A DNA stretch of 6,395 nucleotides, from IMG/VR virus record IMGVR_UViG_2778260991_000003; one strand, given 5' to 3'. This document shows, one piece after another, positions 1-3,000 of this stretch. A program made the position numbers. Numbering within the stretch: position 1 is the first letter of the stretch; each line of letters starts with the position of its first letter. The stretch comes from a virus (lineage: Duplodnaviria; Heunggongvirae; Uroviricota; Caudoviricetes).

Positions 1-3000
1 ATTTATGCGAAATCGCTACAGGCGATGGATTTCAGCGCCATTACTGATAAAGCCTCATATAACGCCATTGAGTGGCCAGCACCTCCACAGAACACCTGAA
101 AAAGAAGTTAATCAACAGACCGTCTTAAGGGCGGTTTTTTTATGGGAGAAATGTATGTCCGGACTACATGGTGTTGAAACCATTGAACTGACGACAGGCA
201 CGGTTGCCGTGCAGACCATCTCCACAGCAGTGATTGGCCTGGTGGGGACAGCACCGGACGCCTCTGGTGGCGTGTGCGCTTCCGGCACAGCCGGCTCCTG
301 GCTGCTGGGAACGGCGCTGGATTTCACGGCGAAACAGGAAGGTCGGGTCGGTAATAAGATTTCGGTTGTTGCCGTGGCTGCCACAGAACAAAACGCGCAG
401 ACAGTGGCATCGCTGAAAGGCACAACCCTGACGATAACGCTGGGGACGGACGAATACAGCCAGGTTAACGCCACGGCTGACCGTGTGACTGAAGTGGTGA
501 ATGCACTGGGTGATTCACCTGTGACGGCGGCGGTCAGTACCCTGAATGCAGGGAGCGCTGAAAATAATGTGGTGTCGCCATTCAGCCTGACGTTATCCGG
601 CGGGGAAGATGAGGCGTTCCCGGTTAATACACCAGTTGTGGTGGCAGGAGCCATTACTCAGGCAGGAAAACTGGGGGCCGCCGGAACACTGTATCCGGCC
701 CTGCGAGATATTTTTGATCAGACCGGTGCACTGGTGATTGTGGTACGTGCGGAAAGCAAACCGAAAGCGAAAGAGGCTGAACAACGCGCGGCGGTGATTA
801 AGGCCATGGAAGCGCTGACAGAGAGTAAAGGTGTGACGGGCTATCAGCCGCGCATTCTCATTGCCACGGGTTACAGTGAGGATGATGGTGTGGCAAAGGC
901 GCTGGAAACGTATGCCGCGAAGCTGCGGGCTGTGGCCTATATCGACTCTCCCTCAATGGCAACGCCGCAGGATGTGGTTCAGCGGCGCGCATCCTTTGGC
1001 GGGCGCGTGGAACTGCTGCGCCCGCGCGTGTCAGTAACGGATGACAGCGGGCAGACGGTATTTCGTCCGTATTCGGCCCGTGCTGCCGGGCTGCGTGCCC
1101 GTATTGATTACGAAAAAGGGTGGTGGTGGTCCAAATCAAACCAGGACGTGATGAATATCACCGGTCTGGAGCAGGTGGATACGTTTATTCTCGGGGAGCA
1201 GAACTGCACGGCAAACCTGCTGAACATGGAAAACATCTCCACCATTATTCGCCATGACGGCTTTAAACACTGGGGTAACCGCCTGTGTACATCCCACAGC
1301 CAGCTGCGTTTTGAGTCTGTGCGCCGTACGGCTGATGTGATTGAGGACAGCATTCAGGAGGCCATGCTGCCTTATGTCGATCGCCCGCTTGATCGGGATG
1401 TGGCGGAGGACATTCTTGGCAGTATTAATGCCTATATGCGTCAGCTTAAAAATCTGGGTGCGATCCACGGTGGCAGCGCCTGGCTGAATGATGAACTGAA
1501 CACGGCAGAAAACCTGGCAGCCGGGTGGTTGTATATCGACTATGACTTCGGACCAAAGTCGCCACTGGAGCGCCTGACGCTACGGACAATGATCAACAAT
1601 AAACTGGCACAGGAGGAACTGACAGTATGATCACAGGTGAAAAAAAACTGTTGCGCGCCTGGACGTTGTTTCTGCCTGGCGGGATCCGTCTTCATGGGGC
1701 GCATGAATACACGCCGCCCGCCATTAATATCTCAACAGTGGATATCAAAACCGGTGCAATGGATGCGCCGGTGGCAGTGGATGACGGCATGGAAGCGCTG
1801 ACCTGCTCATTTAAGATTTATGGTTACGATGTTTCCATGCTGACGCTGCTGGGATTACAGGCCGGGCTTTATTCACCGGAGATCGTTGTTCGCCAGGCTT
1901 ACCAGGTGGGGAATGCGACCAGCGGACAGGTGGAAACCCTGCAGGGGATGATCACCAGTATCACGCCGGATGCACGTCCTGCCACATCACAGGCTGACGC
2001 TTCGGTGACGGTGGAAATGTCACTGAGTTATTACCGTCAGGCTGTCGACGGTGTGGAAACCATCTGCATTATTCCGGAGGAATTTGTGCGCCGTATTAAC
2101 GGCGTGAATGTTCTGTCGGATCTGAAAAAAATTATCCGGGTTTAATCCCGGTATCCTGTCATTCAGGCGGCTCAGGCCGCCTTTTCTTTTTTAAGAGGAG
2201 ACGCAGATGTCAGAAAAAAACAGTGTGCCTGCCAGCAGTGTGGAAATTGTGTTATCCGTGCCGTATGTCACCGCGTCAGGACAGACGATCACGCACGTCA
2301 CCATGCGTGCGCCCACCGTTCGTGACAGGCTGCTGCATCGCCGGAGCAGCAAACCGGAAGCTGAAGCCGATCTGGATATGATTGCCGGTCTGTGCGGGAT
2401 GGATGCGGCGGACATGATGAACATGGAAGCGTGTGATTACCTGGCCCTGGAGCGTCAGTTTAATGTTTTTTTGCTGCCGCCGGTCCGGCGGAAGAAGAAA
2501 GCATCCTGACAGCGATACGGCGTGCCGGTGCATGGTTCGGATGGTCTCCCGGAGATGTGATGGCGCTGCCGTATACGGATTTTGTGGCAATGATGCTGGC
2601 GGAGTCGGAAGAGAGGAAGCGATGTTATGGCAACGGTGGGCGATAACCTTAAAGCGAATATCCGGATCGGAGGCACGATAGATCCGTCGTGGAAAAAATC
2701 GGTTGATGGGCTGAAGCACGGATTATCAGGGGCAACACAGGAAGTGGCTCGTCTGACACGCCAGCAGGACGTACTGAAACGAAAAATTCAGGCTGGCGTA
2801 CTGGCTGGACAGGATATTACTGAACTGCGAAAGCAGTATGAAAAGCTGGGTAAAAAAATTCATGATGCCACCGGAGAGCAGGACAAATTTAACCGTAAAC
2901 TGGCTCGTGCGGAACGCCTGGAACGCTGGAAAGGGCGGGCGGGGACGGTCCTTAAAACCGGTTTTGGGCTTTCGGTTGGTTCCGGGTTGACGTTGGCAGC

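What the first reader, a model, noticed from the sequence alone, without database searches (positions are those of the whole stretch)
2466..2491. T7G slippery site plus GC-rich hairpin predicts an E/E' -1 frameshift chaperone fusion
The chaperone gene carries TTTTTTTG 12 codons before its stop. A -1 slip yields a 57-codon extension that ends 20 nt inside the tape measure gene. The inverted repeat CCGCCGG-T-CCGGCGG begins 3 nt after the site and could act as the stimulatory structure. This recoding is conserved in contractile and long-tailed phages, and the fusion product is needed for tail assembly, so the frame-1 stretch 2473-2646 is coding rather than intergenic.
Basis: partly seen in the sequence, partly recalled or inferred. 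Interest (0 to 1): 0.5.

Follow-up and report, generated by a model that had tools for sequence, protein, structure and literature searches.

The report
Phage tail chaperone programmed -1 frameshift
A small tail-assembly gene of an E. coli prophage carries the same "slippery" T-run as phage P2, letting some ribosomes slip back one base and make a longer second protein; this is a well-known phage trick, here in a prophage lineage where it is not annotated.

Summary
T7 lies at 2466-2472 and G at 2473. The 0-frame codons GTT TTT TTG give the heptamer T_TTT_TTG (2467-2473), in the phase annotated for phage P2 gene E. The -1 frame stays open for 57 codons to TAA 2644-2646, 20 nt inside the tape measure gene. 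The inverted repeat CCGCCGG-T-CCGGCGG lies at 2477-2491.

The window is an E. coli SA53-3 prophage tail operon: sheath, tube, PF10109 chaperone, tape measure, U, X, D. RefSeq annotates only the 100-aa chaperone and leaves 2510-2626 intergenic.

That stretch evolves as coding in the -1 frame. Variable sites fall 7/8/25 by codon position, dN/dS is 0.16-0.41, and the extension is conserved across six related lineages in other genera. The heptamer T_TTT_TTR is kept in 9/9 lineages even though codon 87 changes amino acid.

The extension matches P2 E' only weakly (hhalign probability 62%) and does not hit Pfam PF06528.

The hairpin is real but unexceptional. It has a 3-nt spacer, is absent outside the E. 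coli clade and shows no covariation. Its stimulatory role is unsupported.

Verdict: a new, unannotated member of the known P2 E/E+E' recoding class. Low novelty.

The parts
1627..2145 (+). Tail tube gene (context: upstream neighbour, as FII in P2)
   Evidence: PF04985 Phage_tube, E 3.5e-23. RefSeq calls it 'phage major tail tube protein'.
2207..2509 (+). Tail assembly chaperone, 0-frame product of 100 aa (gpE analogue)
   Evidence: PF10109 Phage_TAC_7, 47.8 bits against a cut-off of 25. Residues 14-89 match profile positions 2-78 of 79, so the domain ends exactly at the slip site. phrog_166 'tail protein', E 6.6e-24. RefSeq WP_096836030.1 'phage tail assembly protein'.
2449..2452 (+). GGAG, a candidate internal Shine-Dalgarno-like element 14 nt 5' of the heptamer (hypothesis only)
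   Evidence: CTGGAG is kept in 8/9 near-clade lineages, with GAGG in the ninth. It also encodes a conserved Leu-Glu, so the signal is confounded. Not tested functionally.
2467..2473 (+). Slippery heptamer T_TTT_TTG (T-run 2466-2472); site of the -1 shift
   Evidence: Phase read directly from the sequence. It is the only TTTTTTG in the window. P2 gene E has the same heptamer in the same phase, with the frameshift annotated in AF063097. It is invariant in 26 distinct close relatives. T_TTT_TTR is kept in 9/9 more distant lineages, with codon 87 = GTT, GAT, AAT or GCT.
2477..2491 (+). Inverted repeat CCGCCGG-T-CCGGCGG (6-bp stem, 3-nt loop when folded); function doubtful
   Evidence: Found (-11.4 kcal/mol). 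It is not exceptional. Only a 3-bp CCG/CGG core is shared by relatives, and there is no covariation.
2473..2646 (+). -1 frame extension (E' analogue): 57 codons plus TAA. Nucleotides 2474-2509 are dual-coding with the 0-frame tail, and 2627-2646 overlaps the tape measure gene.
   Evidence: Translation. Variable sites in 2510-2626 fall 7/8/25 by -1-frame codon position (p = 1.5e-4), and 1/3/13 in 2510-2556. dN/dS is 0.16-0.41. Conserved in 15 relatives. Weak profile match to P2 E' (probability 61.6%).
2207..2646 (+). Predicted fusion product join(2207..2473, 2473..2646), 146 aa (E+E' analogue)
   Evidence: Built. No protein in the 5.8-billion-sequence collection covers more than 61% of it, so the fusion is annotated nowhere. 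Profile comparison with the P2 E+E' family is collinear through the junction (E 2e-4, 114 columns).
2627..4279 (+). Tape measure protein gene (context: downstream neighbour, the presumed client of the chaperone)
   Evidence: PHROG tape measure families, E 2.7e-10 to 1e-2, and phrog_3654 at 1e-214. A 94.8% identical E. coli genome annotates it as 'phage tail tape measure protein'.

Best explanation
Gene 2207-2509 is the tail assembly chaperone of a P2-like contractile-tail module in an E. coli prophage. Most ribosomes read it in frame and make a 100-aa protein, the gpE analogue. At T_TTT_TTG (2467-2473) a minority slip back one base. Peptidyl-tRNA-Phe on UUU and tRNA-Leu on UUG re-pair on UUU UUU. 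These ribosomes then read 57 more codons in the -1 frame and stop at TAA 2644-2646, just inside the tape measure gene. The result is a 146-aa fusion, the gpE+E' analogue.

By analogy with lambda gpG/gpGT and P2 gpE/gpE+E', the shared N-terminal domain coats the tape measure protein. The rarer E' domain recruits the tube protein. The fixed low ratio of the two products is what tail assembly needs.

Shown here: the sequence anatomy, the family of the N-terminal domain, synteny, conservation of the heptamer and the extension, and purifying selection on the -1 frame.

Inferred: that slippage is ribosomal, its efficiency, and the binding partners. The slippery heptamer alone is probably the main signal. 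The downstream hairpin is probably incidental.
For: - Anatomy and phase.
- Context: gene order is sheath, tube, chaperone, tape measure, U, X, D. The window is a 100% match to the E. coli SA53-3 chromosome, where only the 100-aa CDS is annotated.
- Family: PF10109 hits the window chaperone (47.8 bits) and P2 gpE (47.5 bits). In both, the domain ends at the slip site, residue 89 and residue 85.
- P2 reference: P2 has GGT TTT TTG in the same phase, an annotated -1 frameshift, a 57-codon extension and an 8-nt overlap with gene T. PMC3091744 states that P2 shifts -1 at TTTTTTG to give the 91-aa E and the 142-aa E+E'.
- Coding evolution: 40 variable sites in 2510-2626 split 7/8/25 by -1-frame codon position (p = 1.5e-4). 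The part upstream of any possible start codon (2510-2556) splits 1/3/13 (p = 3e-4). The chaperone body splits 17/8/58 and the tape measure gene 11/7/29. dN/dS is 0.16-0.41 against five relatives.
- Conservation of the extension: it is open and alignable in all 15 relatives at 34-57% fusion identity. It always ends within about 1-26 nt of the tape measure start where that start could be located.
- Heptamer selection: codon 87 is GTT, GAT, AAT or GCT, always with T in third position. Phe is always TTT and Leu always TTG or TTA in 9/9 lineages, whereas the neighbouring Asn codon varies between AAT and AAC.
- Distant homology to P2 E+E': hhalign E 2e-4 for the whole fusion, collinear through the junction. 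For the extension alone, probability is 61.6% and E 7.8e-5, with the shared motif [FY]xWxP[SG][DE].
Against: - No protein-level evidence was obtainable.
- The extension does not hit Pfam PF06528 (Phage_P2_GpE) even at E <= 10. BLASTP to P2 E+E' gives E 0.75.
- A sister clade (Citrobacter phage Chris1, Hafnia phage yong2, Citrobacter, Scandinavium and Rouxiella prophages) keeps the -1 extension but has GTT TTT ATG. That is only five T and no canonical A-site slip. A full heptamer is therefore not indispensable in this family, and the mechanism may not be simple tandem slippage.
- A run of seven T could also allow some transcriptional slippage.
- No conserved stimulatory structure was found, so efficiency cannot be predicted.
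Confidence: 0.88

Rival explanations
1. dnaX-like composite cassette. The heptamer works together with the GC hairpin at 2477-2491 as a 3' stimulator, and possibly with the GGAG at 2449-2452 as a 5' Shine-Dalgarno-like stimulator. These would set a higher or tuned frameshift efficiency in this E. coli lineage.
For: - The hairpin exists, at -11.4 kcal/mol and in the top 3% of 30-nt windows.
- It is kept in the E. coli clade.
- GGAG lies 14 nt 5' of the heptamer. CTGGAG is kept in 8/9 near-clade lineages, always with GAG rather than GAA for Glu.
- From memory, not checked here: Larsen et al. 1994 reported that SD-like elements about 10-14 nt upstream stimulate -1 shifting in dnaX.
Against: - The spacer is 3 nt, whereas 5-9 nt is the commonly studied range (PMC5009743, section 'Spacers'). 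The base of the stem would already be inside the mRNA channel when the heptamer is decoded.
- The stem is not more stable than shuffles (z 0.38 and -1.36).
- It is absent in the Salmonella relative (80-82% chaperone identity) and in the other relatives. Only a 3-bp core is shared.
- Covariation is no better than in shuffles: 261/500 shuffles reach the observed score.
- Three of the close relatives (L036, L037, L039; two variants among the 26 distinct sequences) carry C2486A, which breaks a pair, with no compensating change.
- P2 and its Burkholderia relatives have no hairpin (PMC3091744).
- The arms are explained by coding: Pro-Pro/Arg in frame 0, and Ala-Ala-Gly/Ala-Glu in frame -1.
Confidence: 0.15
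2. Transcriptional slippage. RNA polymerase stutters on the run of seven T and adds one U to a fraction of transcripts. Standard translation of those mRNAs then gives the same fusion with one extra Phe.
For: The window has T7, one longer than the T6 of P2. An inserted U gives access to the -1 frame. Homopolymer slippage is used by other genes (PMC5009743).
Against: - Most relatives, and P2, manage with T6, and one clade with T5. Those runs are too short for efficient polymerase slippage.
- What is conserved is the ribosomal X_XXY_YYZ phase and the TTG/TTA A-site codon.
- The seventh T follows simply from a Val GTT codon. Relatives have GAT, AAT or GCT at that position.
- Run length is invariant at T7 in 26 close relatives.
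Confidence: 0.06
3. No recoding. The -1 stretch is either a separate small gene translated from its own start, or non-coding spacer that happens to be open.
For: Gene callers called 50-51-aa stand-alone ORFs at this place in L051 and L056, and a 39-aa ORF in Hafnia phage yong2. The +1 frame is also open here (ORF 2433-2681), so openness alone proves little.
Against: - In the window the first ATG or GTG in the -1 frame is at 2557/2560. That lies after the best-conserved part of the extension (ILTAIRRAGAWFGWSPGD).
- The ATG that overlaps the stop in the Salmonella relative is CTG here.
- 2510-2556 still shows a 1/3/13 codon-position bias.
- The +1 frame has the wrong pattern, 25/7/8.
- The extension is conserved across genera with dN/dS of 0.16-0.41.
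Confidence: 0.03

Closest known systems
Phage P2 gpE / gpE+E' (FETUD tail operon; Christie et al. 2002; annotated in AF063097)
   Same: - The gene lies between the tube gene (FII) and the tape measure gene (T).
- The N-terminal domain is PF10109 and ends at the slip site.
- The heptamer T_TTT_TTG is identical and in the same phase, a few codons before the 0-frame stop.
- The shift is -1 and the extension is 57 codons in both.
- The extension ends a few nt inside the tape measure gene (8 nt in P2, 20 nt here).
- Product sizes are similar: 91 and 142 aa in P2, 100 and 146 aa here.
   Different: - Sequence similarity is very low: BLASTP E 0.75, and hhalign probability only 46-62%.
- The extension is not a PF06528 member.
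- Here X and D follow U (order U-X-D). In the rest of the prophage the head genes are lambda-like rather than P2-like.
- RefSeq annotates the fusion for P2-type prophages as 'GpE family phage tail protein' but not for this lineage.
- This lineage has a GC hairpin after the site. P2 has none (PMC3091744).
Phage lambda gpG / gpGT (Levin et al. 1993; Xu et al. 2004, 2013, 2014)
   Same: The logic is the same. A -1 slip occurs near the end of the chaperone gene immediately upstream of the tape measure gene. It yields two proteins with a common N-terminus in a fixed ratio, and neither is in the virion (PMC5009743).
   Different: Lambda has a non-contractile tail and a different slippery sequence. 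No sequence similarity was found. The mechanistic roles (G binds the tape measure, T binds the tube subunit) are carried over here by analogy only.
Phage Mu and BcepMu-type chaperone pair with a -2 (or +1) shift
   Same: It belongs to the same Pfam family, PF10109 ('E, or 41 or 14'). The second domain is homologous: PhiKM and KP12 have ...RWFRFQPGEIDALDTDDLEMWLEQ, against AWFGWSPGDVMALPYTDFVAMMLAE here.
   Different: In those phages the extension lies in the +1 (= -2) frame, next to a run of five G before the stop. There is no T-run. The window uses the -1 frame.
E. coli dnaX / IS911-type -1 frameshift cassettes
   Same: A homopolymeric X_XXY_YYZ heptamer decoded by E. coli ribosomes. A hairpin lies downstream and a GGAG upstream.
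   Different: The spacer to the hairpin is 3 nt, not 5-9. There is no conservation or covariation of the structure. The stimulators are unproven.

Membership tests
P2-type E/E+E' tail chaperone pair made by a programmed -1 frameshift | The gene lies between the tail tube gene and the tape measure gene of a contractile-tail module | tested here: met
   Sheath (PF04984/PF17482), tube (PF04985), chaperone, tape measure, GpU (PF06995), X (PF05489), D.
P2-type E/E+E' tail chaperone pair made by a programmed -1 frameshift | The N-terminal (0-frame) part belongs to Pfam PF10109 Phage_TAC_7 | tested here: met
   E 1.5e-12, 47.8 bits against a cut-off of 25, residues 14-89. P2 gpE scores 47.5 bits over residues 7-85.
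P2-type E/E+E' tail chaperone pair made by a programmed -1 frameshift | Slippery heptamer TTTTTTG in X_XXY_YYZ phase close to the 0-frame stop | tested here: met
   GTT TTT TTG at 2465-2473, 12 codons before the stop. P2 has GGT TTT TTG, 7 codons before the stop. Conserved as T_TTT_TTR in 9/9 near-clade lineages.
P2-type E/E+E' tail chaperone pair made by a programmed -1 frameshift | A -1 frame extension of about 50-60 codons that ends at or inside the tape measure start and has no start codon of its own | tested here: met
   57 codons with a 20-nt overlap. The first ATG or GTG in that frame is at 2557/2560.
   Codon-position bias 7/8/25 (p = 1.5e-4). dN/dS 0.16-0.41. Alignable in 15 relatives from seven or more genera.
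P2-type E/E+E' tail chaperone pair made by a programmed -1 frameshift | The extension belongs to Pfam PF06528 Phage_P2_GpE | tested here: not met
   No hit at E <= 10, whereas P2 E+E' scores 76.3 bits. There is only a weak profile-profile match: probability 61.6%, 31 columns. So it works like E', but it is not a member of the PF06528 sequence family as currently defined.
P2-type E/E+E' tail chaperone pair made by a programmed -1 frameshift | Both products are made in vivo and both are needed for tail assembly | not testable with these tools
   Needs proteomics, reporter assays or genetics.
-1 frameshift cassette with a 3' stimulatory stem-loop (dnaX/IS911 type) | A stable structure starting about 5-9 nt after the heptamer | tested here: not met
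   The stem starts 3 nt after the heptamer. Its energy is -11.4 kcal/mol, no better than shuffles. Spacer range from PMC5009743.
-1 frameshift cassette with a 3' stimulatory stem-loop (dnaX/IS911 type) | The structure is conserved, or covaries, among relatives that keep the shift site | tested here: not met
   Only a 3-bp core is shared. 66.7% of cells are paired, the same as in shuffles. The covariation score is reached by 261/500 shuffles.
-1 frameshift cassette with a 3' stimulatory stem-loop (dnaX/IS911 type) | A 5' Shine-Dalgarno-like stimulator at a suitable distance | tested here: inconclusive
   GGAG lies 14 nt upstream and is kept in 8/9 near-clade lineages. It coincides with conserved Leu-Glu codons.

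The most novel reading that the evidence does not exclude
The E. coli lineage may have added lineage-specific tuning elements to an otherwise signal-free P2-type slip site. These would be the 6-7-bp GC hairpin only 3 nt downstream and a GGAG 14 nt upstream. More broadly, this one PF10109 chaperone family may reach a homologous E' domain by at least four different recoding solutions:

- T_TTT_TTG, -1 (this window and P2);
- GTT TTT ATG, -1, with no canonical heptamer (Chris1/yong2 clade);
- CTT TGA C, +1, identical to the prfB site (Pseudomonas prophages);
- a G-run, -2 or +1 (BcepMu-like phages).

If so, the family would be a natural series for studying how frameshift sites are exchanged while the product ratio is kept.
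Probability: 0.15. Interest if true: 0.35.

Novelty: new member of a known kind. Interest (0 to 1): 0.2.

Why it matters
It corrects an annotation. In 74 of 5,426 complete E. coli genomes that carry at least 80% of this module (148 carry some match), 117 nt are labelled intergenic. An essential tail protein, the 146-aa fusion, is missing from RefSeq and from a protein collection of 5.8 billion clusters. The cause is that the E' part falls outside the Pfam and NCBIfam models that trigger frameshift annotation for P2.

Biologically it is an expected example of a conserved phage recoding event, so it adds little that is conceptually new. Its use is as a further, divergent data point. It shows that the T_TTT_TTG site is selected at the nucleotide level and that a downstream structure is not a conserved requirement.

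Tried and rejected
- BLASTP of the fusion against P2 E+E' was not significant (E 0.75). I moved to profile-profile comparison.
- Pfam, NCBIfam and PHROGs scans of the extension alone gave no hits.
- phmmer of the 57-aa extension against 1.84 billion representatives gave 12 hits. They were short stand-alone ORF calls of the same segment and low-complexity matches in long proteins. None linked it to PF06528.
- A PDB sequence search with the fusion profile found nothing.
- An Rfam scan of the whole window at E <= 1 found nothing.
- Christie et al. 2002 (PMC135442) is not held in the paper library. P2 facts come from the GenBank record and PMC3091744.
- The hairpin as a conserved element was rejected after the alignment fold and pair counts.
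- The +1-frame ORF 2433-2681 as a gene was rejected on its codon-position pattern, 25/7/8.
- An independent start for the extension was rejected. The window has CTG where the Salmonella relative has ATG, and the coding signal extends upstream of the first ATG/GTG.
- A megablast of the window against 50,697 phage records matched only the tail-fibre ends. The prophage has no close sequenced phage relative.
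Full report
**1. Observation**

- ORF 2207-2509 (100 aa) ends ...AAT GTT TTT TTG CTG CCG CCG GTC CGG CGG AAG AAG AAA GCA TCC TGA.
- The seven T are at 2466-2472 and the G at 2473.
- In the 0 frame the codons are GTT (2465), TTT (2468) and TTG (2471). The heptamer T_TTT_TTG (2467-2473) is therefore in the X_XXY_YYZ phase, and TTG is the 12th codon before the stop.
- From 2473 the -1 frame reads 57 codons (AAAGPAEEESILTAIRRAGAWFGWSPGDVMALPYTDFVAMMLAESEERKRCYGNGGR). It stops at TAA 2644-2646, 20 nt beyond the ATG (2627) of the next gene.
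- The fusion is 146 aa.
- The inverted repeat CCGCCGG/CCGGCGG is at 2477-2483 and 2485-2491, 3 nt after the heptamer.

Neither element alone is beyond chance.
- TTTTTTG occurs once, against 1.05 expected.
- Perfect 7-bp inverted repeats with short loops occur 6 times, against 3.8 +/- 2.7 in shuffles.
- 25 places in the window fold as stably as this hairpin, which has -11.4 kcal/mol.

**2. What the locus is**

The window is 100% identical to the E. coli SA53-3 chromosome (NZ_CP076279.1, 1452192-1458586) and lies in a prophage next to ompW/trp.

Pfam and PHROGs give the gene order:
- sheath, 155-1630;
- tube, 1627-2145;
- PF10109 tail assembly chaperone, 2207-2509;
- tape measure protein, 2627-4279;
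- GpU, X and D.

RefSeq annotates only the 100-aa chaperone and leaves 2510-2626 intergenic. A 94.8% identical genome is annotated the same way. No protein in a collection of 5.8 billion clusters covers more than 61% of the predicted fusion. For P2-type prophages, by contrast, the fusion is annotated as 'GpE family phage tail protein' with PF10109 + PF06528. The module has no close relative among 50,697 phage records. The nearest phages are Citrobacter phage Chris1 and Hafnia phage yong2, at 37-44% identity.

**3. Comparison with P2**

The P2 record annotates E (91 aa), E+E' (142 aa) and a -1 frameshift site. Its sequence is GGT TTT TTG, the same heptamer in the same phase. It is followed by a 57-codon -1 extension that ends 8 nt inside gene T. 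PMC3091744, citing Christie et al. 2002 and Xu et al. 2004, confirms that P2 shifts at TTTTTTG. It also reports that P2 and its Burkholderia relatives have no downstream hairpin.

PF10109 matches both proteins up to the slip site.

Direct BLASTP of the two fusions is not significant, at E 0.75. The extension does not hit PF06528. Profile-profile comparison of the two fusion families is collinear through the junction (E 2e-4, 114 columns, probability 46%). The extensions alone align with probability 62% (E 7.8e-5) on a shared [FY]xWxP[SG][DE]...[LM]P/S motif.

So the locus works like P2 E/E+E' and is probably a distant homologue. Its E' part is outside the current Pfam family.

**4. Is the -1 frame really coding?**

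Among 26 distinct close relatives (86-97% identical), variable sites were counted by codon position.

| Region | Frame | Positions 1 / 2 / 3 | p |
|---|---|---|---|
| 'Intergenic' 2510-2626 (40 variable sites) | -1 | 7 / 8 / 25 | 1.5e-4 |
| Chaperone body | 0 | 17 / 8 / 58 | |
| Tape measure gene | its own | 11 / 7 / 29 | |
| 2510-2556 (before any ATG/GTG in the -1 frame) | -1 | 1 / 3 / 13 | 3e-4 |
| 2510-2626 | +1 | 25 / 7 / 8 | |

- The +1 frame is also open here (ORF 2433-2681), but its pattern is the wrong one for a coding frame.
- All 26 sequences keep the 57-codon ORF and T7G.
- The dual-coding overlap 2474-2509 is the least variable part, with 7 of 36 sites variable.
- Against five more distant relatives, dN/dS of the single-coding part is 0.16-0.41.
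- The extension is open and alignable in 15 relatives. They come from Salmonella, Trabulsiella, Dryocola, Serratia, Rouxiella, Citrobacter, Scandinavium and Hafnia, plus metagenome assemblies.

**5. Selection on the slip site**

In the nine lineages nearest the window the site is always T_TTT_TTR.
- Codon 87 is GTT, GAT, AAT or GCT. That is four different amino acids, always with T in third position.
- Phe is always TTT.
- Leu is always TTG or TTA, never CTN.
- The preceding Asn codon varies freely between AAT and AAC.

This points to nucleotide-level selection for the heptamer in the ribosomal phase. The seventh T of the window is simply the middle base of a Val codon.

**6. The hairpin**

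Several results speak against a stimulatory role.
- It folds at -11.4 kcal/mol, but this is not more stable than shuffled sequence (z 0.38 and -1.36).
- It starts 3 nt after the heptamer, whereas the commonly studied spacers are 5-9 nt (PMC5009743).
- Outside the E. coli clade only a 3-bp CCG/CGG core survives. The Salmonella relative (80-82% chaperone identity) has CCCCCGGAGAAGCGG.
- There is no covariation: 261/500 shuffles reach the observed score.
- Three of the close relatives (L036, L037, L039) carry an uncompensated C2486A.
- The arms coincide with Pro-Pro/Arg codons in frame 0 and Ala-Ala-Gly/Ala-Glu codons in frame -1.

I therefore treat a stimulatory role as unsupported, though not excluded.

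A GGAG lies 14 nt upstream (2449-2452). It is kept in 8/9 near-clade lineages and could be a dnaX-like 5' stimulator. It overlaps conserved Leu-Glu codons, so this remains an idea only.

**7. Mechanism**

The best-supported mechanism is tandem -1 ribosomal slippage at U_UUU_UUG. It would give a minority 146-aa product alongside the 100-aa chaperone.

By analogy with lambda G/GT (PMC5009743) and P2, the shared domain would bind the tape measure protein and the E' domain would recruit the tube protein.

Rivals:
- A hairpin- or SD-assisted cassette, confidence 0.15.
- Transcriptional slippage on T7, confidence 0.06. It is disfavoured because relatives use T6 or T5 and because the phase is conserved.
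- No recoding, or an independent small ORF, confidence 0.03. It is disfavoured by the missing start codon and by the coding signal upstream of 2557.

**8. Verdict**

The finding is correct and is an ordinary example of a well-known class. It is a new, unannotated and divergent member of the P2 E/E+E' type of tail chaperone frameshift. Its practical value is in annotation. The side observations on alternative recoding solutions in the same protein family (see below) are the more interesting leads.

Noticed in passing
L002 3244-3252 (Citrobacter phage Chris1); L005 3253-3261 (Hafnia phage yong2); L043-L048 around 2744-2770: A sister clade keeps a homologous -1 extension (54-57 codons, ending 17-26 nt inside the tape measure gene). 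At the slip position it has GTT TTT ATG: only five T, and an AUG A-site codon that cannot re-pair in the -1 frame. No other slippery motif lies between the upstream -1-frame stop and the 0-frame stop. This suggests a non-canonical slip by a single tRNA, in either the P site or the A site. None of these records annotates a fusion.
   Followed up: partly
L049 2765-2771 and L050 2756-2762 (Pseudomonas alkylphenolica and P. caspiana prophages): In these distant PF10109 relatives the homologous second domain (...LNFSAAEIEAMPFDGMVWWLTD) lies in the +1 frame. The chaperone ends with CTT TGA C, the same sequence as the classic prfB (RF2) +1 frameshift site. This would be a +1 shift at the stop codon instead of a -1 shift.
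   Followed up: partly
L003 3295-3306 (Escherichia phage PhiKM) and L004 (Klebsiella phage KP12) around 3270-3300: In these BcepMu-like relatives the homologous extension (RWFRFQPGEIDALDTDDLEMWLEQAEEQIK) is in the +1 (= -2) frame. In PhiKM a run of five G sits just before the stop. This fits the -2 frameshift reported for phage Mu (Xu et al. 2004, as cited in PMC5009743). Neither record annotates it.
   Followed up: partly
window 2165-2192: A terminator-like element lies between the tube gene and the chaperone gene: AGGCGGC-TCAG-GCCGCCT followed by TTTTCTTTTTT. GC-rich stems followed by T-runs occupy the same position in the Salmonella relative, Chris1 and yong2, with different sequences. Trabulsiella and P2 have stems without a T-run. 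It may be a partial terminator that lowers expression of the chaperone and tape measure genes relative to sheath and tube.
   Followed up: partly
L001 4954-15249 (E. coli SA53-3, upstream of the window): An element is inserted inside the prophage, between its head genes and its baseplate genes. It carries a tyrosine integrase, an HTH regulator, a BRO-N protein, an Icd-like protein, DUF4222, a RepA-family helicase, SSB, its own major capsid and head decoration proteins, and a small terminase subunit. It looks like a capsid-forming satellite (cf-PICI-like).
   Followed up: no
window 1-99 and about 6055-6395: The window ends match the tail fibre and tail fibre assembly genes of 'Escherichia phage Rac-SA53' (KU052037, 82.5% identity). 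This was the only megablast hit in the phage collection. A second tail-fibre gene ('prophage tail fiber N-terminal domain') follows gene D, so the prophage appears to carry two fibre modules.
   Followed up: no
window 2474-2509: This stretch is dual-coding. Both the 0-frame tail (LPPVRRKKKAS; P91, P92 and R95 are invariant in relatives) and the -1 frame (AAGPAEEES) are conserved. It is the least variable stretch of the region, with 7 of 36 sites variable against about one third elsewhere. One relative (L035) has an earlier 0-frame stop (AAG TAA) while its -1 frame stays open.
   Followed up: yes
window 2627-4279: The tape measure protein has no Pfam hit and is called 'hypothetical protein' in this strain's RefSeq record. 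It matches phrog_3654 ('unknown function') at E 1e-214, and several tape measure PHROGs only weakly. A 94.8% identical genome names it tape measure protein.
   Followed up: partly
window 2433-2681 and 5-1630: Two mechanical ORFs are misleading. The 82-aa +1-frame ORF across the junction shows the wrong codon-position pattern and is not a gene. The 541-aa ORF from position 5 extends 50 codons upstream of the annotated sheath start at 155.
   Followed up: partly
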